11,240 nucleotides of DNA from Candidatus Falkowbacteria bacterium (GTDB taxonomy: Bacteria; Patescibacteriota; Patescibacteriia; CAIXNZ01). Location of the stretch: positions 1 through 11,240 of the forward strand of contig CAIXNZ010000090.1 in the NCBI GenBank assembly GCA_903920975.1, in the 5' to 3' direction. The position numbers were made by a program, and so were the translations under genes. The notes below the pieces were generated by a model. That model worked only from the letters and a program-made list of their open reading frames with translations. It did no database searches and was not told the DNA's origin. This document shows positions 5,150 to 11,240 of the stretch, in pieces. How positions within the stretch are numbered: position 1 is the stretch's first letter; every line of letters starts with the position of its first letter.

Positions 5150-6343
5150 ATGCAATTAAAATCCATTGAACAAATTAAAAATCTAAAAAATAAGCGTGTT
5201 TTAGTACGCGTTGATTATAATGTTGATATTGCCAAAGGCAAAGTAACAGAACCCGAAAGAATTGACAGGACTTTCACTACTATTAATTATTTGGTCAAAA
5301 ATAAAGCTAAGGTAATATTGATGTCTCATTTGGGCAGGCCAGATGGACAGCGGGTGGAAAAATACAGCCTGAGGCCGGTTTATGGCTACTTAGACAAAAT
5401 GGCCAAAAGACCAGTTTATTTTGTTAATGATTGCATTGGCAATGCTGTTAAAGAAAAAATTGAGAAAATGCAGGCTGGGCAAATTTTGCTTTTAGAAAAT
5501 TTGCGATTTTATAGCGGGGAAGAAGCTAATGACACAAAATTTGCCCGCGAACTTGCTTCATTGGCTGACATTTATGTTAATGACGCCTTTGCCGTTGTGC
5601 ATCGCGCTCACGCTTCTGTAGCGGCAATAACCAAATATTCGCCGAGCTACGCAGGTTTTAATTTAATTGACGAGGTGAAGAATTTATCTAAATTATTGAG
5701 TGGCTTTAAAAAACCGGCCGTGGCAATCATTGGCGGAGTCAAAATTTCTACTAAGATTAAAGTTCTGGAGAATTTTTGCAAAAAATATGACAAGGTTTTG
5801 ATTGGCGGAGCACTTGCTAATAATTTTTTTGTCGCTAAAAAATATAATATTGGCCAATCAGTTTTTGAAGCAGATTTTGTAAAATTATCCAAACGCTTAT
5901 TGGACAAATACAAGAAAAAAATCATTCTACCCCTTGATGTTGTTATAACTAATAAAGTCGATATGAGCGGGAAAAAGGAAATCGTTAAAGTGACTGATTT
6001 AAATAAGCAAAAAAACAAAAAGTTTCTAATCGTTGATATTGGCACTAAAACAGAATTATATTTTGAAAGTTTTATTAAATCTTCCAGCACTTTTGTCTGG
6101 AATGGAGCCATGGGCGTATTTGAAATCCCGCAATTCGCTCACGGTAGTGATTATCTGGCCAGAATTATGGCCATGCAATCTCGGGGAGATGCTTATGGCG
6201 CAGTCGGCGGCGGAGACACCATAATCCTTATTAAGAGAAATTATTTGGAAAATTGGTATGATTTTGTTTCAACGGGCGGGGGAGCAATGCTGGAATTTCT
6301 GGAAGGTAAAGTTTTACCCGGCATTAAACCACTAGTAAGATGA
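5150..6343 (+). CDS. pgk: Phosphoglycerate kinase
   Basis: Motifs VLVRVDYNV, MSHLGRP, LLENLRF and the C-terminal STGGGAMLEFLEGK. Start placed at ATG 5150 (MQLKSIEQ) rather than the TTG at 5123. Confidence 0.93.
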   Translation: MQLKSIEQIKNLKNKRVLVRVDYNVDIAKGKVTEPERIDRTFTTINYLVKNKAKVILMSHLGRPDGQRVEKYSLRPVYGYLDKMAKRPVYFVNDCIGNAVKEKIEKMQAGQILLLENLRFYSGEEANDTKFARELASLADIYVNDAFAVVHRAHASVAAITKYSPSYAGFNLIDEVKNLSKLLSGFKKPAVAIIGGVKISTKIKVLENFCKKYDKVLIGGALANNFFVAKKYNIGQSVFEADFVKLSKRLLDKYKKKIILPLDVVITNKVDMSGKKEIVKVTDLNKQKNKKFLIVDIGTKTELYFESFIKSSSTFVWNGAMGVFEIPQFAHGSDYLARIMAMQSRGDAYGAVGGGDTIILIKRNYLENWYDFVSTGGGAMLEFLEGKVLPGIKPLVR

Positions 6344-7359: not shown

Positions 7360-8619
7360 ATGTTTTCTTCGCGTAAGATAAAAAAAATTCAAGCGCTAGA
7401 AATTTTAGATTCTCGGGGGAATCCCACCCTTGAGGTTATTGTTTATTTAAAAAATGGCATTAGCGGCAAGGCAGCCGTACCTTCGGGCGCTTCAACTGGC
7501 AGTCATGAAGCTTTGGAATTGCGCGATAATGACAAGAAGCGTTTTGGCGGCAAAGGCGTGCAAAAAGCCATTAAGCATGTTAACACTGAAATTAATTTTT
7601 TACTGAAAAATCTTGATGTCACCAAGCAACAGGATATTGATAAACTTATGATTAAGCTTGACGACTCTGATAATAAAGCAAATTTGGGAGCCAATGCAAT
7701 GCTGGGCGTTTCTTTGGCCTGTGCAGTTGCAGGCGCAAAAGTGTTAAATTTACCTTTATATAAATATTTAAGGCAAGTTTACCACATACACTATAAAGCT
7801 TTTCGTCTGCCTCGGCCCATGATGAATGTTCTAAACGGCGGCAAGCATGCCAATTGGGCCACTGATATCCAGGAGTTTATGATTGTGCCAAAGTCAGGCT
7901 CTATAGCAAAAAGAGTACAAATTGGCAGTGAAATATTTCATGCTTTAGCCAATATTTTGGAGGAAAAGAACTATGCGACACTGGTTGGTGATGAGGGCGG
8001 TTTTGCTCCAAAATTAAAGAAAAATGAAATGGCCTTAGATTTATTAGTGATGGCTATAAAAAAAGCTGGGTATAAATTAACCAAAGATGTTGATTTGGCC
8101 ATTGATTGCGCAGCTTCAGAATTTTTTAAAAAAACCAATAAGACTTATAGGTTGAACGGAAAAAAATTTACAACAGGTCGTTTAATCAATCTATATAAAA
8201 AATGGGTAAAAAAATATAAATTAATTTCCATTGAAGACGGCTTGGCAGAAGATGATTGGCAGGGCTGGCGAAATCTGACTAAAAAAATAGGCGCCAAATG
8301 CATGTTGATTGGCGATGATTTATTTGTAACTAATAGCGAAAGATTACAAAAGGGGATTAATATACAAGCTGGCAATGCCATTCTAATTAAGCCAAATCAA
8401 ATAGGCACTCTGACTGAAACCGTGGCTACAATTTATCTGGCAAAAATGAATAATTATAAAGTGATAGTTTCTCATAGAAGCGGTGAAACTTGCGATTCAT
8501 TTATCTCTGATTTGACAGTGGCAGTTAACGCTGAATTTATTAAAGCCGGATCTTTGAGTCGGGGAGAGCGAGTAGCAAAATACAATCGGCTGATAGAAAT
8601 ACAACAAGAATTAATTTAA
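7360..8619 (+). CDS. eno: Enolase (phosphopyruvate hydratase)
   Basis: Motifs ILDSRGNPTLEV, SGASTGSHEALELRD, IKPNQIGTLTE, SHRSGET and SLSRGERVAKYN. Confidence 0.95.
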   Translation: MFSSRKIKKIQALEILDSRGNPTLEVIVYLKNGISGKAAVPSGASTGSHEALELRDNDKKRFGGKGVQKAIKHVNTEINFLLKNLDVTKQQDIDKLMIKLDDSDNKANLGANAMLGVSLACAVAGAKVLNLPLYKYLRQVYHIHYKAFRLPRPMMNVLNGGKHANWATDIQEFMIVPKSGSIAKRVQIGSEIFHALANILEEKNYATLVGDEGGFAPKLKKNEMALDLLVMAIKKAGYKLTKDVDLAIDCAASEFFKKTNKTYRLNGKKFTTGRLINLYKKWVKKYKLISIEDGLAEDDWQGWRNLTKKIGAKCMLIGDDLFVTNSERLQKGINIQAGNAILIKPNQIGTLTETVATIYLAKMNNYKVIVSHRSGETCDSFISDLTVAVNAEFIKAGSLSRGERVAKYNRLIEIQQELI

Positions 8620-8632
8620 TTTATAATAAAAA

Positions 8633-8658
8633 GGCCCGTCGGAAAGCGGGTTTTTTTT
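8633..8658 (+). terminator. Rho-independent terminator after eno
   Basis: Short GC stem CCCG (8635..8638) / CGGG (8647..8650) followed by an 8-T run. Confidence 0.6.
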
Positions 8659-8668
8659 ATTTGATGAA

Positions 8669-8786
8669 GAGCGAAAACGGCTGTTATCATTGTTGTAGAG
8701 ACGCGCCATGGCGCGTCTCTACGGCGTACGCAAACCGTTGTAGAGACGCATTGCAATGCGTCTCTACGTTCTGGCCGTTTTCGCCC
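8669..8786. repeat. Clamped composite palindromic element E2 (GCGAAAACGGC...GCCGTTTTCGC) enclosing two tandem 28-nt perfect palindromes
   Basis: The outer 11-bp inverted repeat is 8671..8681 / 8774..8784. The inner palindromes are GTAGAGACGCGCCATGGCGCGTCTCTAC (8695..8722) and GTAGAGACGCATTGCAATGCGTCTCTAC (8740..8767). Confidence 0.85.
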
Positions 8787-8795
8787 ACAAGAACC

Positions 8796-8824
8796 TTGAC
8801 AAAATTAAATTTTTGCTCTATACT
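8796..8824 (+). promoter_or_regulatory. Sigma70 promoter of the 63-aa ORF cassette
   Basis: TTGACA (8796..8801), 17 nt, TATACT (8819..8824). Confidence 0.75.
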
Positions 8825-8830
8825 TTTAAA

Positions 8831-9019
8831 TCGAACCTTAAAAATATCTCTTGCTGAAAGGACAAGAGATTAAAAATATTGACCTCCGGTTATTGTTTAT
8901 TCCTGTATCATCGAGAAAAACTTCTCCCCGGATTATGAACGCCAAAAATGAAAAGGGCGAACAAAAAAGGGGAAAGGACAGGAACAAACTAACCGGCAAG
9001 TAATTGCCAAGGAGGTCTT
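8831..9019 (+). promoter_or_regulatory. Structured 5' leader, copy L1 (SD-sequestering; candidate cis-regulatory RNA)
   Basis: Non-coding stretch between promoter and ATG. It has a hairpin 8846..8870. GACCTCCGGTT (8881..8891) is complementary to AACC (8991..8994) and to the SD GGAGGTC (9011..9017). A junction hairpin GGCAA-GTAA-TTGCC lies at 8995..9008. It is homologous to 9727..9898. Confidence 0.65.
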
Positions 9020-9211
9020 ATGTTGAGATTTTCGAAGATGAGCGATGAGGAGATTAAGGAGTTGATGGCTAAGCCTATATCCAAGGAAGACGCAGATAGG
9101 TTGCACAAGATCAATGAGGAAGACAGATGGATGCTTTCTATGTTTCTAATTAGTGAAGCATCCAGTGAAGAACGAGCGTCCGGTAAAGCGAAGCCAAAAC
9201 GCAAGAGATAA
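9020..9211 (+). CDS. 63-aa highly charged hypothetical protein with Lys/Arg-rich tail (KAKPKRKR)
   Basis: ORF track. AAGGAGGTC lies 2 nt upstream of the ATG. It has a dedicated promoter and terminator. Confidence 0.7.
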   Translation: MLRFSKMSDEEIKELMAKPISKEDADRLHKINEEDRWMLSMFLISEASSEERASGKAKPKRKR

Positions 9212-9223
9212 CTTTTGCATTCA

Positions 9224-9252
9224 AGGCCTGCTGCAAAGCGGGCCTTTTTTTT
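9224..9252 (+). terminator. Rho-independent terminator of the 63-aa cassette
   Basis: AGGCCTGC (9224..9231) / GCGGGCCT (9238..9245) followed by a T-run. It is near-identical to the terminator at 10388..10416. Confidence 0.8.
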
Positions 9253-9262
9253 ATTCCAATTA

Positions 9263-9291
9263 TTGACAAATATATTAAAATATGCTATTAT
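9263..9291 (+). promoter_or_regulatory. Sigma70 promoter of the small membrane-protein cassette
   Basis: TTGACA (9263..9268), 17 nt, TATTAT (9286..9291). Confidence 0.75.
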
Positions 9292-9322
9292 TTTACTAAA
9301 TTAATCGAAAAAGGAGGGAGTG

Positions 9323-9634
9323 ATGATACACTATTTTTTGGTCCATTATTTTCAGACGTACTTGCTTATCGGATTGATTCTGACCGCATCTCTGTATTTC
9401 ATTTTCCTGAATGAGTTCGTGAACGAGGACAAGAAAATCGCCGCCATCTTGTTCCTTATCATCATCGCACTAATCTGGCCACTTTATCCGCTGGCGTTCA
9501 TCGAGGCCCTGATTGTCAGGACCCAAATCATCGGTACAACCGTGGCCATTCTCTTCGGGTGTATGTATAACTACATGTGGCATGGAAGGTTTACGCCCTT
9601 TCCGCCTTCACTAAGTGAGGAAGAAGAACTCTAA
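9323..9634 (+). CDS. 103-aa integral membrane protein (about 3 TM helices) with acidic C-terminal tail SLSEEEEL
   Basis: AGGAGG at 9312..9317, 5 nt before ATG 9323; the GTG at 9320 is too close to the SD. Three hydrophobic stretches: YLLIGLILTASLYFIFL, IAAILFLIIIALIWPLYPLAFI, IIGTTVAILFGCMY. Confidence 0.75.
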   Translation: MIHYFLVHYFQTYLLIGLILTASLYFIFLNEFVNEDKKIAAILFLIIIALIWPLYPLAFIEALIVRTQIIGTTVAILFGCMYNYMWHGRFTPFPPSLSEEEEL

Positions 9635-9648
9635 AAGATTGCCATAAC

Positions 9649-9681
9649 ACAACCGGAGCTAAAAACTTCGGTTGTTTTTTT
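9649..9681 (+). terminator. Rho-independent terminator of the membrane-protein cassette
   Basis: ACAACCG (9649..9655) / CGGTTGT (9669..9675) followed by TTTTTT. Confidence 0.7.
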
Positions 9682-9691
9682 ATATTTTCTA

Positions 9692-9720
9692 TTGACAAAA
9701 TATAATTTTTGCGCTAAAAT
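9692..9720 (+). promoter_or_regulatory. Sigma70 promoter of paralogue cassette 3
   Basis: TTGACA (9692..9697), 17 nt, TAAAAT (9715..9720). Confidence 0.75.
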
Positions 9721-9726
9721 ACCAAA

Positions 9727-9898
9727 TCATGAATCTTAAAAATATCTCTTGCGAAAGGACAAGAGATTGGAAATATTGACCTCCGGTTATTGTTATTCCC
9801 AAACCCAAGCCGCCAAAAAAGAAGAGGCGAAAAGAAGTGGGGAAAGAATTGGGAACAATAACTCAAACCGGCAAAGTAATTTGCCAGGGAGGTCTGAA
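9727..9898 (+). promoter_or_regulatory. Structured 5' leader, copy L2 (SD-sequestering; candidate cis-regulatory RNA)
   Basis: Homologous to L1. It has a hairpin 9744..9767, anti-SD GACCTCCGGTT at 9778..9788, junction hairpin GGCAAA-GTAA-TTTGCC at 9870..9885 and SD GGAGGTC at 9888..9894. Confidence 0.65.
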
Positions 9899-10372
9899 AT
9901 GGAAATCGAATTACAAATTGTTAGTGTTGAAAAAACTCACACCGTAATAGTTGATTACAATAAATCTCTTAAAGAGATGATAGCGCTTGGTGATTTTGAC
10001 GGGGTCGATCCAGAGATTATCGAGGTTGAACCATTTATAATTCAGGGTACTGACCAGCGAACGATGGAACTCTATTTGGCTATATTCAATCGTCATCCGG
10101 TCTCTGATAATGAGGCTACTGACAAACTCAGAAATGATGGATTTGAGCCAGCCGGAATCGAGTTTATAATTGCGCTTGGCGCTGTATGGATGATGCCTTC
10201 CAGAGAAATAATGATCTGGTCACTTCAGGAAGGCTCGGGACATTATAATCCTGTTTGGCCAGGCCTTGCTGTCAACGAGAATGGAAAATGCATTGTACTT
10301 GATAGTTGGTCACCTTGGGACGACCATTGTCCTGGTCGCCTCGGCTATTATTTGGTTTTTAAAAAACAATAG
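9899..10372 (+). CDS. Paralogue family member P3 (157 aa), most divergent copy, ending YYLVFKKQ
   Basis: ATG at 9899 follows GGGAGGTC. The ORF-track start at 9749 (TTG) would translate the conserved leader, whose counterpart L1 has stops in that frame. Shared motifs: VIVDY, KEMI, FD, FIIQG, EL, PAGIEFIIALGAVW. Confidence 0.8.
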   Translation: MEIELQIVSVEKTHTVIVDYNKSLKEMIALGDFDGVDPEIIEVEPFIIQGTDQRTMELYLAIFNRHPVSDNEATDKLRNDGFEPAGIEFIIALGAVWMMPSREIMIWSLQEGSGHYNPVWPGLAVNENGKCIVLDSWSPWDDHCPGRLGYYLVFKKQ

Positions 10373-10387
10373 ATATTTTCGAAATTA

Positions 10388-10416
10388 AGGCCTGCTGTAA
10401 AAGCGGGCCTTTTTTT
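10388..10416 (+). terminator. Rho-independent terminator of paralogue cassette 3
   Basis: AGGCCTGC (10388..10395) / GCGGGCCT (10403..10410) followed by a T-run. Confidence 0.8.
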
Positions 10417-10426
10417 ATTGATTTAA

Positions 10427-10518
10427 AGCGAAAACGCTTTGGCCATATAAAACTCTAAAGAGTGAATTCCGTATTCGGATTTTAGGCTTTAGCCTTTTAT
10501 CTTAACAGCGTTTTCGCT
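10427..10518. repeat. Clamped composite palindromic element E3 (AGCGAAAACGCT...AGCGTTTTCGCT)
   Basis: The outer 12-bp perfect inverted repeat is 10427..10438 / 10507..10518. Inside are three mini-hairpins: ACTCT-AA-AGAGT, GAATTCCG...CGGATT and AGGCT-TT-AGCCT. Confidence 0.8.
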
Positions 10519-10539
10519 AAATTGAATGGGTTTATTTAT

Positions 10540-10568
10540 TTGAATATAGGTGCATTTTGGTGTAAAAT
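10540..10568 (+). promoter_or_regulatory. Possible promoter of gpmI, giving a near-leaderless mRNA
   Basis: TTGAAT (10540..10545), 17 nt, TAAAAT (10563..10568). The ATG at 10577 is only about 8 nt after the -10 and has no SD. Confidence 0.35.
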
Positions 10569-10576
10569 ATAGGTAT

Positions 10577-11240
10577 ATGAATAAGACAGAAAAATATAAA
10601 AATCTGCCTTTTGTTTTGGTTATTTTGGATGGCTGGGGCATTGCGCCAGCTAGTCCGAGTAATCCGATTTCCTTGGCTAAAACGCCCAATATGGATAATT
10701 TTTTGAAATTTTATCCAAATACAGAGCTAATAGCTTCTGGTGAAAAAGTTGGATTAAAAAAAGGCGAAGATGGCAATTCTGAGGCTGGCCATATGAATAT
10801 TGGAGCAGGCCGGATAGTTATGCAAGATCAGATGGCTATTACAAAAATGATTAAGAATAAATCATTTTTCAAAAATGAAGCCTTACTGTCTGCCATAAAA
10901 CATGCCAAAAAATACAGATCAAATATTCATGTCATGGGTTTACTTTCCAACGGCCAAAGCGCCCATTCTGATCCGGAACATTTGTATGCTCTTATAGATT
11001 TTTTCAAGAAACAAAAATTTCATAGAATTTATTTTCATCTTTTTACTGATGGTCGCGATTCTCCTCCGCACGCTGCCGCACGATTAGTCAGCAAATTGAT
11101 AAATAATTTTAAAAATAAAGAAATTATTTCAACAATCATGGGCAGATTTTATGCCATGGATAGAATAAAAAAATGGACCAGAACCGAGGCCGCGTATAAT
11201 GCCATGGTTTTGGGAAATGGATTAGTCTCTGATAATCCAT
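10577..11240 (+). CDS. gpmI: 2,3-bisphosphoglycerate-independent phosphoglycerate mutase, N-terminal part (runs off the window)
   Basis: Hand translation gives MNKTEKYKNLPFVLVILDGWGIAP...GNSEAGHMNIGAGR...HLFTDGRDSPP, which are iPGM hallmark motifs. It is absent from the ORF track because no stop is reached before the window end. Confidence 0.88.
   Translation, partial: MNKTEKYKNLPFVLVILDGWGIAPASPSNPISLAKTPNMDNFLKFYPNTELIASGEKVGLKKGEDGNSEAGHMNIGAGRIVMQDQMAITKMIKNKSFFKNEALLSAIKHAKKYRSNIHVMGLLSNGQSAHSDPEHLYALIDFFKKQKFHRIYFHLFTDGRDSPPHAAARLVSKLINNFKNKEIISTIMGRFYAMDRIKKWTRTEAAYNAMVLGNGLVSDNP

What the first reader, a model, noticed from the sequence alone, without database searches (positions are those of the whole stretch)
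9727..9898. Second copy of the leader in front of an unrelated ORF, with helix-preserving differences
L2 precedes paralogue P3, whereas L1 precedes an unrelated 63-aa protein. The first ~65 nt (8837..8903 vs 9735..9799) differ by only two substitutions and two single-nt indels. The last ~35 nt are also conserved, and the middle is about 30 nt shorter in L2. Several differences preserve the fold. The junction hairpin changes from GGCAA-GTAA-TTGCC to GGCAAA-GTAA-TTTGCC (9870..9885), a paired A/T insertion. The indel in the 5' hairpin falls in the loop (CTGAAAGGA vs CGAAAGGA). The CGCC/GGCG stem is kept (9811..9814 / 9826..9829) with a different loop. The anti-SD (9778..9788) and SD (9888..9894) are kept. 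L2 also has a 9-bp extension GTTATTGTT (9786..9794) / AACAATAAC (9854..9862). The frame that reads through L2 (ORF-track start 9749) is closed by stops in L1, so the conservation is at RNA/DNA level, not protein level. A leader reused on different cargo genes behaves like a portable regulatory module.
Basis: seen in the sequence. Interest (0 to 1): 0.72.

Follow-up and report, generated by a model that had tools for sequence, protein, structure and literature searches.

The report
Reused ribosome-site-locking mRNA leader
Two unrelated small genes in this uncultivated ultrasmall bacterium (Patescibacteria) carry the same promoter plus a roughly 170-190-nt folded mRNA leader that hides the ribosome-binding site. 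Copies of this unit sit in front of a third kind of gene in a relative and are swapped between genes by recombination, so it looks like a new, lineage-specific 'off-by-default' expression module whose trigger is unknown.

Summary
L1 (8832-9019) and L2 (9729-9898) are homologous from the -35 box to the Shine-Dalgarno (SD) sequence and precede unrelated ORFs. I found three more independent copies in two related Patescibacteria genomes, plus a recombinant strain variant. Cargo genes are a 63-aa protein (three genomes), P3, and a 331-aa protein.

All copies fold on their own into the same architecture (z -3.9 to -6.1). This is a 5' hairpin H1, then a three-way junction in which the invariant GACCUCC pairs with the SD GGAGGUC. 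A long A/G-rich hairpin H3 and a small hairpin H4 branch from the junction. The SD is unpaired with probability below 0.01, and opening the ribosome site costs 12-17 kcal/mol.

Changes mostly keep the helices: three compensatory pairs, four wobble changes and one inserted pair. Most pairs never vary, so covariation statistics are weak.

The 5' block is 83-96% identical between copies, against 73% for the enolase gene between the same genomes. One strain carries L2's promoter and 5' tail at the L1 locus, which shows gene conversion.

There is no match in Rfam, phages or plasmids. Best reading: a new default-off translational leader that is part of a recombining promoter-leader module. What unlocks it is inferred, not shown.

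The parts
8796..8824 (+). L1 promoter: TTGACA, 17-nt spacer, TATACT
   Evidence: 11 of 12 consensus matches. Homology with L2, L4 and L5 starts at the -35 hexamer.
8832..9019 (+). Leader L1 (5' UTR, subtype A, 188 nt)
   Evidence: MFE -60 kcal/mol, z -6.1. CM R1 scores it 101 bits.
8846..8870 (+). L1 hairpin H1: AUCUCUUG / CAAGAGAU with loop CUGAAAGGA
   Evidence: The eight pairs are kept in all copies.
8881..8887 (+). L1 anti-SD GACCUCC
   Evidence: Pairs with 9011-9017 in the MFE structure and in the ensemble. Invariant in all copies.
8888..8994 (+). L1 long hairpin H3. It contains UUCCUGU/ACAGGAA, a 15-nt insertion at 8907-8921 that marks subtype A, an apical CGCC/GGCG stem and A-rich loops
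8995..9008 (+). L1 junction hairpin H4: GGCAA-GUAA-UUGCC
9011..9017 (+). L1 Shine-Dalgarno GGAGGUC, sequestered
   Evidence: P(unpaired) at most 0.003. Opening costs 15.9 kcal/mol.
9020..9211 (+). Cargo 1: the 63-aa charged protein 'sp63' with a basic C-terminal tail
   Evidence: Orthologues sit at the same eno-gpmI position in L017, L018 and L014. No Pfam, PHROGs or PADLOC match.
9225..9252 (+). Shared intrinsic terminator GGCCUGCUG..GCGGGCC followed by a U-run
   Evidence: The same terminator follows all five leader-bearing genes.
9692..9720 (+). L2 promoter: TTGACA, 17-nt spacer, TAAAAT
   Evidence: 11 of 12 consensus matches.
9729..9898 (+). Leader L2 (5' UTR, subtype B, 170 nt). This is the finding
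   Evidence: MFE -50.9 kcal/mol, z -3.9. CM R1 scores it 193 bits.
9744..9767 (+). L2 hairpin H1 with loop CGAAAGGA
9778..9784 (+). L2 anti-SD GACCUCC
   Evidence: Pairs with 9888-9894.
9785..9863 (+). L2 long hairpin H3: GGUUAUUGU/ACAAUAACU, UCCCAA/UUGGGA, CCCA/UGGG and CGCC/GGCG
9870..9885 (+). L2 junction hairpin H4: GGCAAA-GUAA-UUUGCC, one pair longer than in L1
9888..9894 (+). L2 Shine-Dalgarno GGAGGUC, sequestered
   Evidence: P(unpaired) at most 0.005. Opening costs 14.5 kcal/mol.
9899..10372 (+). Cargo 2: P3, 157 aa, a distant paralogue of P1 and P2
   Evidence: 29-35% identity over about 80 aa. It belongs to a large unnamed family.
10389..10416 (+). Shared terminator, second copy

Best explanation
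L1 and L2 are two copies of a lineage-specific, structured 5' untranslated leader. It is transcribed from its own sigma-70-type promoter.

**Fold.** The RNA forms a 5' hairpin (H1) followed by a three-way junction. The stem of that junction is the invariant anti-SD GACCUCC paired to the SD GGAGGUC. A long A/G-rich hairpin (H3) and a short hairpin (H4) hold the two strands together, so the ribosome-binding site is closed by default.

**Module.** The unit runs from the -35 box to the SD and is usually closed by one particular terminator. It behaves as a cassette of expression parts. Homologous recombination or gene conversion has placed it on at least three unrelated small accessory genes and still exchanges sequence between copies.

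**Shown here:** homology of the copies, a shared predicted fold, SD occlusion in the predicted ensemble, block-wise conservation, different cargo genes, and recombination between copies.

**Inferred:** that translation is really repressed, and that release needs a trans-acting factor. I think the most likely factor is a protein or small RNA that recognises the nearly invariant 5' block (5' tail, H1 with its A-R-A-G-G-A-C loop, A/U-rich linker and anti-SD strand). It would work in the manner of anti-antisense activation of the E. coli rpoS leader. The small basic 63-aa protein at the conserved eno-gpmI locus is one candidate. That comparison and that candidate are my own suggestions from general knowledge, not tool results.
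For: - **Independent copies.** There are five copies in three genomes plus one strain variant. The covariance model finds nothing else above noise in about 120 kb of related DNA.
- **Same fold.** Each copy folds alone into the same architecture, with z-scores of -6.1, -3.9, -4.1, -4.5 and -6.1. RNAalifold recovers H1, H2, H3b, H3c and H4.
- **Pairing kept.** 96.8% of cells are paired, against 33-53% when partners are slid. L1 has a triple compensatory change, UUCCUGU/ACAGGAA against UUCCCAA/UUGGGAA. Single-sided G-U or U-G changes occur in H1 (L4), H3c (L3) and H3d (L1 and L3), plus one in H3b (L027). L2 has a paired insertion in H4.
- **SD occluded.** P(SD unpaired) is below 0.01 in all five copies. 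Opening the ribosome site costs 11.8-17.1 kcal/mol. By a comparable measure it costs 17-18 kcal/mol for these two genes and 5-12 for all but one other gene in the window.
- **Block-wise conservation.** The 5' block is 83-96% identical between copies and the leader middle 61-87%. Between the window genome and STA_35 (the related Patescibacteria MAG GCA_028714455), enolase DNA is 72.8% identical and the sp63 coding sequence 77.7%.
- **Module boundaries.** Homology starts at the -35 hexamer and ends at SD+1, with a variable spacer before the ATG.
- **Recombination.** L027 carries the L2-type promoter spacer, -10 box and 5' tail inside the L1 locus. Subtype markers, promoters and H4 sort differently among copies.
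- **Shared terminator.** The same terminator follows all five cargo genes.
Against: - There is no expression, probing or translation data. All structures are predictions.
- Covariation is thin. 29 of 38 modelled pairs never vary, and the three double changes are all in one sequence and may be a single event. 35-43 of 500 shuffles reach the observed values.
- The reverse-complement strand folds about as well. Strand assignment therefore rests on the promoter, the SD and the terminator orientation.
- A few pairs are broken at helix ends: the two outer pairs of H3c in L4, the innermost pair of H4 in L3 and L4, and one in H3d.
- No conserved alternative 'ON' fold was found, so the release mechanism is conjecture.
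- Within-genome gene conversion is demonstrated, so it could account for part of the sequence identity.
- In one relative (L014) the sp63 orthologue has a different leader. The L-type leader is therefore not essential to that gene.
Confidence: 0.6

Rival explanations
1. The leader is a riboswitch. It binds a small molecule or ion, and binding opens the SD helix, turning on a small regulon of accessory genes.
For: The same leader sits in front of unrelated genes in one genome, which is the classic riboswitch signature. The ribosome site is locked and needs a trigger. Several unpaired segments are highly conserved.
Against: - Nothing on the leaders in a scan of all Rfam 15 families at E up to 1.
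- The junction strands vary: CUCAAACC, CUCAAGCC or CUAACC on one side and AA, AG or AAG on the other.
- The apical part of H3 varies in length and sequence.
- Invariance is concentrated in H1, the linker and one helix strand, not in a junction pocket.
- No mutually exclusive alternative fold is predicted.
- The cargo genes have no recognisable metabolic theme.
Confidence: 0.15
2. Selection acts on the DNA. The region is a promoter plus a promoter-proximal operator, with the 8-bp palindrome ATCTCTTG-N8/9-CAAGAGAT at about +15 to +39 bound by a repressor. The RNA fold is incidental.
For: Conservation begins exactly at the -35 hexamer and includes the promoter spacer. H1 is a perfect inverted repeat in four of five copies. 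The minus strand folds equally well.
Against: - The spacer between half-sites is 8 or 9 nt.
- The A-to-G change in L4 breaks the DNA palindrome but keeps a U-G pair in the RNA.
- This reading does not explain the invariant anti-SD/SD complementarity 110-140 nt apart.
- It does not explain the compensatory H3c change or the paired insertion in H4.
Confidence: 0.12
3. The leader has no regulatory role. The copies are recent duplicates kept similar by gene conversion, and the hairpins and SD pairing are neutral passengers.
For: Gene conversion between L1 and L2 is seen directly. The copies are mosaic. The family is tiny and patchy: it is absent from the eno-gpmI spacer of relatives with 85%, 83%, 75% and 74% enolase identity.
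Against: - Conservation is block-wise, not uniform. The 5' block is 83-96% identical across genomes whose enolase DNA is 73% identical, while the middle of the same leader falls to 61%.
- Substitutions and indels preferentially keep helices.
- All copies keep near-complete SD occlusion.
Confidence: 0.1
4. The leader is a constitutive mRNA stabiliser or translation throttle. H1 and the compact fold protect the 5' end, and the closed SD simply sets a low fixed translation rate. The A/U-rich single strands may act as a ribosome standby site. There is no switch.
For: The structure is strong and stable with no alternative fold. Conserved single-stranded A/U-rich segments flank H1, next to the closed ribosome site. 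The cargo genes are small accessory genes.
Against: The opening cost of 12-17 kcal/mol is large for useful constitutive expression. About 13 unpaired nt precede H1, which by my own knowledge is not the usual geometry for a 5'-terminal stabiliser. The near-invariance of the H1 loop and linker is not needed for a mere throttle.
Confidence: 0.12
5. The leader is an RNA thermometer that melts the SD helix at higher temperature.
For: The SD is paired to an upstream anti-SD.
Against: The helix has seven uninterrupted Watson-Crick pairs, five of them G-C, stacked on H3 and H4, and costs 12-17 kcal/mol to open. There is no ROSE, FourU or other thermometer hit in Rfam. The cargo genes are not recognisable stress genes.
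Confidence: 0.03

Closest known systems
SD-sequestering translational leaders opened by a trans-acting RNA or protein, for example the E. coli rpoS 5' UTR activated by DsrA, RprA or ArcZ (own knowledge)
   Same: A long 5' UTR whose upstream strand pairs with the SD region so the gene is off by default. The upstream strand is the natural target for an activator.
   Different: There is no sequence or Rfam relationship. No activator is known. The helix here is the stem of a three-way junction with an extra 5' hairpin. The same leader is shared by unrelated genes.
Putative mobile promoters (PMPs): Matus-Garcia, Nijveen and van Passel 2012, summarised in PMC3575422
   Same: Highly similar upstream DNA (at least 80% over at least 50 nt) in front of non-homologous genes within a genome and shared between related taxa. 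That survey already noted that riboswitch-like RNA motifs can travel on such units.
   Different: Here the unit is delimited exactly, from the -35 box to the SD. It contains a large structured leader. It is paired with a common terminator. An exchange between copies is caught at strain level.
Translational (SD-occluding) riboswitches
   Same: A structured leader with the SD in a helix, found before unrelated genes in one genome.
   Different: No conserved junction pocket, no alternative fold predicted, no Rfam family, no ligand clue.
5' UTRs of type I toxin mRNAs such as tisB, hok and aapA1 (own knowledge)
   Same: The primary transcript is translationally inert because the 5' UTR occludes the ribosome site. 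The genes are small and stand alone, each with its own promoter and terminator.
   Different: The cargo proteins are not small hydrophobic peptides: sp63 is highly charged, and the others are 157 and 331 aa. The consensus scan found no antisense promoter.

Membership tests
Any Rfam 15 family | Match to a family covariance model | tested here: not met
   A cmscan of the whole window at E up to 1 gives nine weak hits, none in 8796-9019 or 9692-9898.
Riboswitch (class level) | Conserved ligand-binding core, meaning invariant junction or pocket nucleotides with covarying stems | tested here: inconclusive
   With five or six sequences, the junction strands vary and the invariance lies in H1, the linker and one helix strand. 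There are too few sequences to exclude a pocket.
Riboswitch (class level) | Expression platform with mutually exclusive alternative pairing | tested here: not met
   When the ribosome site is forced open, the anti-SD finds no conserved alternative partner.
Riboswitch (class level) | Direct ligand binding | not testable with these tools
   Needs in-line probing or ITC.
RNA thermometer (ROSE, FourU) | SD held by a weak, mismatch-containing helix that melts within the physiological range | tested here: not met
   Seven perfect pairs, five of them G-C. Opening costs 12-17 kcal/mol at 37 C. No Rfam hit.
Type I toxin-antitoxin mRNA leader | Cargo is a small hydrophobic membrane peptide | tested here: not met
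   The translations show a charged 63-aa protein, a 157-aa protein and a 331-aa protein.
Type I toxin-antitoxin mRNA leader | Overlapping or adjacent antisense RNA gene | tested here: inconclusive
   The consensus scan finds no minus-strand promoter in 8500-10650. A consensus scan cannot exclude one.
Type I toxin-antitoxin mRNA leader | Ribosome site occluded in the primary transcript | tested here: met
   (prediction only).
Putative mobile promoter (PMP) | At least 80% identity over at least 50 nt of upstream DNA | tested here: met
   L1 vs L2: 94% over the 52-nt 5' block and 79% over the promoter. The definition is from PMC3575422.
Putative mobile promoter (PMP) | Downstream coding sequences are not homologous | tested here: met
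   sp63, P3 and the 331-aa ORF have different lengths and share no family hit. I did not compare them with each other directly.
MITE or REP-type mobile element | Terminal inverted repeats and target-site duplication at the unit's ends | tested here: not met
   The unit's ends (TTGACAAAAT... and ...GGAGGTCT) are not inverted repeats, and the flanks share no duplication (by inspection).
CsrA/RsmA-regulated leader | GGA motifs in a hairpin loop and at the SD | tested here: inconclusive
   The H1 loop keeps A-R-A-G-G-A-C in five of five copies, and the SD contains GGA. However, the SD copy is buried in a helix.
CsrA/RsmA-regulated leader | A csrA gene present in the genome | not testable with these tools
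   Only 11-21 kb pieces of these genomes were available.

The most novel reading that the evidence does not exclude
The leader is the cis-element of a small post-transcriptional regulon in one Patescibacteria clade. A dedicated factor would unlock the closed ribosome site. This could be the basic 63-aa protein encoded behind the ancestral copy, a small RNA or a ligand that recognises the invariant 5' block. New genes would join the regulon when recombination drops them between the promoter-leader part and the shared terminator, making a natural plug-and-play regulated expression cassette.
Probability: 0.22. Interest if true: 0.7.

Novelty: new member of a known kind. Interest (0 to 1): 0.47.

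Why it matters
Almost nothing is known about gene regulation in Patescibacteria, and a recent review of the field lists the lack of controllable expression systems as a limitation (PMC11665869). A native, compact promoter-leader unit that locks translation and can be moved between genes is a concrete candidate for the first lineage-specific cis-regulatory RNA in this group. It is also a possible starting point for an expression tool. Finally, it is an unusually clean natural example of regulatory-module reuse: the boundaries are exact (-35 box to SD), at least three kinds of cargo are involved, and an exchange between copies is visible between strains.

Tried and rejected
**Collection scans**
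- The genome-collection scan with GAAAGGACAAGAGA-N4-16-TGACCTCC gave one true hit (L002) and one chance hit inside an ATP-synthase gene.
- The metagenome scan with GGACAAGAGA-N4-16-TGACCTCCGG gave nine hits, all chance.
- In hindsight both patterns were too strict.
- Two viral scans and blastn against phages and plasmids found nothing.

**Cargo function**
- P3 alone has no homologue in the word-indexed protein search.
- The cargo proteins have no Pfam, PHROGs, PADLOC or PDB-sequence match.
- The AlphaFold model of P3 reached only pLDDT 59, so I did not use it for a fold search.

**Tests that did not discriminate or were negative**
- Strand test: the reverse complement folds as well as the + strand.
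- The leader's 5' end is complementary to the stop-codon region of sp63 mRNAs (-12 to -19 kcal/mol, 0-2 of 500 shuffles). The match is marginal for P3, absent for the 331-aa gene, and not part of the full-length MFE fold. I therefore do not treat it as part of the motif.
- Leader peptide: subtype B copies start with AUG at the predicted TSS, but subtype A copies lack it. The mini-ORFs end at different places, and the substitutions in L5 are non-synonymous.
- I searched the DNA held for a complement of the invariant 24-nt block, as a possible activator RNA. Only the leaders themselves came up.
- The different leader in L014 folds unconvincingly (z -1.8) and is not homologous.
- The literature searches found nothing describing this leader or any comparable Patescibacteria RNA motif.

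Full report
**Context**

The window is an 11.2-kb contig of an uncultivated Patescibacteria bacterium. Its enolase is 85% identical to that of a 'Candidatus Falkowbacteria' MAG and 82% identical to that of Patescibacteria MAG STA_35 (GCA_028714455).

Core genes run along the + strand: hydrogenase large subunit, rsmE, hypA, pgk, a SIMPL-domain protein, eno and gpmI. Three small stand-alone genes lie between eno (7360-8619) and gpmI (from 10578). Each has its own promoter and terminator:
- a 63-aa protein, here called sp63 (9020-9211);
- a 104-aa membrane protein (9320-9634);
- P3 (9899-10372).

The closest relative examined (L012) has none of these genes in that spacer. The block is therefore accessory.

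**Check of the observation**

All coordinates and sequence statements in the finding are correct (details in the observation check).

L1 and L2 are homologous from the -35 hexamer (8796 / 9692) to just past the SD (9017 / 9894). The spacer to the ATG and the coding regions are unrelated. The predicted TSS lies near 8830-8834 and 9726-9729, because both promoters match the consensus at 11 of 12 positions.

Two details need correcting. L2 is about 18 nt shorter than L1, not 30. The 'extra' 9-bp helix in L2 has a rearranged equivalent in L1.

P3 is a distant paralogue of P1 and P2, at 29-35% identity over about 80 aa.

**More copies**

| Copy | Location | Genome | Cargo gene |
|---|---|---|---|
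| L1 | window 8832-9019 | window | sp63 |
| L2 | window 9729-9898 | window | P3 |
| L3 | L002:4036-4234 | STA_35 | unrelated 331-aa ORF |
| L4 | L017:11439-11605 | STA_35, eno-gpmI spacer | sp63 orthologue |
| L5 | L018:4573-4740 | third genome | sp63 orthologue (reading frame broken in this assembly) |
| L1 variant | L027:413-600 | strain of the window species | sp63 |

- L3 came from a degenerate pattern scan of the species-representative genomes.
- L4 came from fetching DNA around close enolase homologues and searching it with a profile.
- L5 came from a search with the sp63 alignment. That assembly also has a fragmented enolase, so sequencing errors are likely.
- Other contigs (L019, L020, L026, L028, L029) repeat L1, L2 or L4 exactly.

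A covariance model built from L2, L4 and L5 finds exactly these copies and nothing else above noise in about 120 kb of related DNA.

Four relatives at 85%, 83%, 75% and 74% enolase identity have no L-type leader at this locus. A relative at 82% (L014) has the sp63 orthologue behind a different, GC-richer leader.

My two collection patterns would have missed L4 and L5. The true family is probably larger than five.

**Structure**

Each copy, folded alone, gives the same architecture with z-scores of -3.9 to -6.1:
- about 13 unpaired nt at the 5' end;
- hairpin H1 (AUCUCUUG/CAAGAGAU), with a loop that always contains A-R-A-G-G-A-C;
- an A/U-rich linker;
- helix H2 (GACCUCC/GGAGGUC), which is the anti-SD paired to the SD;
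- stacked on H2, a long interrupted hairpin H3, made of GGUUAUUGU/ACAAUAACU, UUCCCAA/UUGGGAA, a short CCC/GGG helix and an apical CGCC/GGCG stem with a 10-19-nt A-rich loop;
- a short hairpin H4 between H3 and the SD strand.

RNAalifold recovers H1, H2, H3b, H3c and H4 on its own.

On the model-guided alignment, 96.8% of cells are paired, against 33-53% when the 3' partners are slid by 1-3 columns.

Informative changes:
- three adjacent compensatory pairs in H3c of L1;
- U-A to U-G in H1 of L4;
- U-A to U-G in H3c of L3;
- C-G to U-G in the short H3d helix of L1 and L3;
- G-C to G-U in H3b of the L027 variant;
- an inserted A-U pair in H4 of L2;
- length changes confined to loops.

Weak points:
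- 29 of 38 pairs never vary.
- The three double changes sit in one sequence.
- 35-43 of 500 shuffles reach the observed scores.
- A few helix-end pairs are broken in single copies.
- The reverse strand folds equally well.

The fold is therefore supported mainly by thermodynamics repeated in five diverged copies and by the pattern of indels. It is not supported by statistically strong covariation.

**Consequence for translation (predicted)**

In the equilibrium ensemble each SD nucleotide is unpaired with probability of at most 0.006 in all five copies. Forcing the ribosome site open costs 11.8-17.1 kcal/mol.

In a uniform comparison across 16 starts in the window, these two genes need 17-18 kcal/mol. 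Most others need 5-12. The exception is hypA, whose start abuts a repeat palindrome.

When the site is forced open, the anti-SD finds no conserved alternative partner. The leader looks built to close. There is no terminator inside it, so transcription attenuation is not the mode.

**Conservation pattern**

| Region compared | Identity |
|---|---|
| 5' block (H1, linker, anti-SD, 5' strand of H3), between copies | 83-96% |
| 3' block, between copies | 80-95% |
| Leader middle, between copies | 61-87% |
| Enolase DNA, window vs STA_35 | 72.8% |
| sp63 coding sequence, window vs STA_35 | 77.7% |

One strand of the leader is thus better conserved than a glycolytic gene. It is also better conserved than pairing alone requires. 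This points to recognition of that block by something sequence-specific. That step is my inference.

**Portability**

Cargo genes differ: sp63 three times, P3 once and the 331-aa ORF once.

Two subtypes exist:
- Subtype A (L1, L3) has the 5' end CGAACC, the loop CUGAAAGGA and a shared 15-17-nt insertion AUCAUCRAGAAAAAY.
- Subtype B (L2, L4, L5) has the 5' end CAUGAAC and a short middle.

Each of the two best-sampled genomes has one copy of each subtype, but on different cargo. sp63 carries A in the window genome and B in STA_35.

Promoters group by locus (L1, L4, L5). H4 groups by genome: L3 and L4 share GGCAUUAAUUUGCC.

The L027 strain shows exchange directly. Its L1 locus has the L1 flank and the L1 body, but about 40 nt (promoter spacer, -10 box and 5' tail) are the L2 version.

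The same terminator, GGCCUGCUG..GCGGGCC plus a U-run, follows all five cargo genes. In the DNA held from the window, L002 and L017, those are its only occurrences.

The unit has no terminal inverted repeats or target duplications. Spread by homologous recombination between shared parts is more likely than transposition. This fits the published notion of 'putative mobile promoters', which were noted to carry riboswitch-like RNAs in some cases (PMC3575422).

**What it is not**

- It matches no Rfam family.
- It has no phage or plasmid match.
- No tRNA or tmRNA gene was found anywhere in the window.
- It is not a thermometer-type weak helix.
- It is not a type I toxin leader, judging by the cargo.
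- It does not encode a conserved peptide.

A DNA operator reading of H1 is weakened in two ways. The half-site spacing is 8 or 9 nt. The L4 change keeps only RNA pairing. That reading also cannot explain H2, H3 or H4.

**Verdict**

The element is a new, narrowly distributed, structured 5' leader that is predicted to lock the ribosome-binding site. It belongs to a promoter-leader(-terminator) set of parts that recombination moves between small accessory genes.

Its kind is known: SD-sequestering leaders and reused promoter modules. This particular family is not described in Rfam or in the literature I could search.

The trigger that opens it is unknown. I favour a trans-acting factor that reads the invariant 5' block. 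A ligand-sensing riboswitch, a constitutive throttle and a DNA-level operator are the live alternatives.

Noticed in passing
window 9225-9252 and 10389-10416; L002:5247-5273; L017:11811-11838; L018:4956-4984; L014:11274-11301 and 11845-11871: One nearly identical intrinsic terminator (GGCCTGCTG-TAAAA-GCGGGCC followed by a T-run) follows every leader-bearing gene. In some relatives it also follows eno. In the window, L002 and L017 these are its only occurrences. Together with the promoter-leader it brackets variable cargo like an expression cassette.
   Followed up: partly
window 8671-8784, 10428-10517 and 1217-1303; L002:3896-3974; L012:11313-11423; L014:11314-11392; L025:1448-1534: There are 79-114-nt palindromic elements bounded by GCGAAAAC[GC]...[GC]GTTTTCGC. 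Several hold nested inner palindromes (GTAGAGAC..GTCTCTAC). Two of them flank the accessory block between eno and gpmI, and one sits just upstream of the L3 promoter. They look like lineage-specific REP-like repeats. Their function is unknown.
   Followed up: partly
window 1236-1297, 2702-2743 and 4790-4866: A second repeat family (TGTCACCCTGAGCTTGTCGAAGG...CTCAGCATGACA) forms long hairpins. The copy at 4790-4866 ends 1 nt before the hypA start codon (4868). This gives that gene the most occluded ribosome site in the window, at about 20 kcal/mol.
   Followed up: no
whole window (16 start sites): Core genes (eno, pgk, SIMPL, the 71-aa ORF at 6340) have no recognisable Shine-Dalgarno sequence. 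The small accessory genes (sp63, P3, the 104-aa membrane protein, P1, P2 and the two minus-strand ORFs at 222-437 and 459-812) all have a strong (A)GGAGG.
   Followed up: no
window 1306-1444 and 1944-2068: P1 and P2 share a different promoter plus leader of about 100 nt (84% identity over 73 nt), with a conserved CCATA..TATGG hairpin. This is a second leader family in the same contig, here on paralogous genes.
   Followed up: no
window 1445-1903, 2069-2563 and 9899-10372: P1, P2 and P3 belong to a large domain family that Pfam does not name. The family has 2721 cluster representatives at E up to 1e-3, often as tandem two-domain proteins, and one is fused to a DnaJ domain. The AlphaFold model was poor (pLDDT 59).
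   Followed up: partly
eno-gpmI spacer in L012, L014, L017, L018, L021, L022, L025 and L027: This spacer is a hotspot for small accessory genes, and its content differs in every relative. It holds nothing extra in L012, L021 and L022. It holds sp63 with another leader in L014, sp63 only in L017, and two minus-strand small ORFs plus sp63 in L018. L025 has a 172-aa ORF, and L027 has extra repeat elements.
   Followed up: partly
L018:4425-4530 and L027:about 970-1130: Each region has a consensus promoter (TTGACAAA...) followed by a short GC-rich structured stretch and a terminator, with no ORF. These are possible small RNA genes inside the same hotspot.
   Followed up: no
window 8832-8856 vs 9197-9224 (also L017 and L018): The first 22-25 nt of the leader are complementary to the stop-codon region and 3' UTR of sp63 (GCAAGAGAUAACUUUUGC). 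The duplex energy is -12 to -19 kcal/mol and 0-2 of 500 shuffles do as well. The match is marginal for P3, absent for the 331-aa gene, and not present in the full-length MFE fold (I15, 86, 87). The 3' segment is also conserved in L014, which lacks the 5' partner.
   Followed up: yes
window 9729-9779; L017:11439-11462; L018:4572-4613: Subtype B leaders begin with AUG at or next to the predicted TSS. This would give leaderless mini-ORFs of 16, 7 and 13 codons (MN[LF][KR]NIS...). Subtype A leaders (L1, L3) lack the AUG, so a leader peptide is unlikely.
   Followed up: yes
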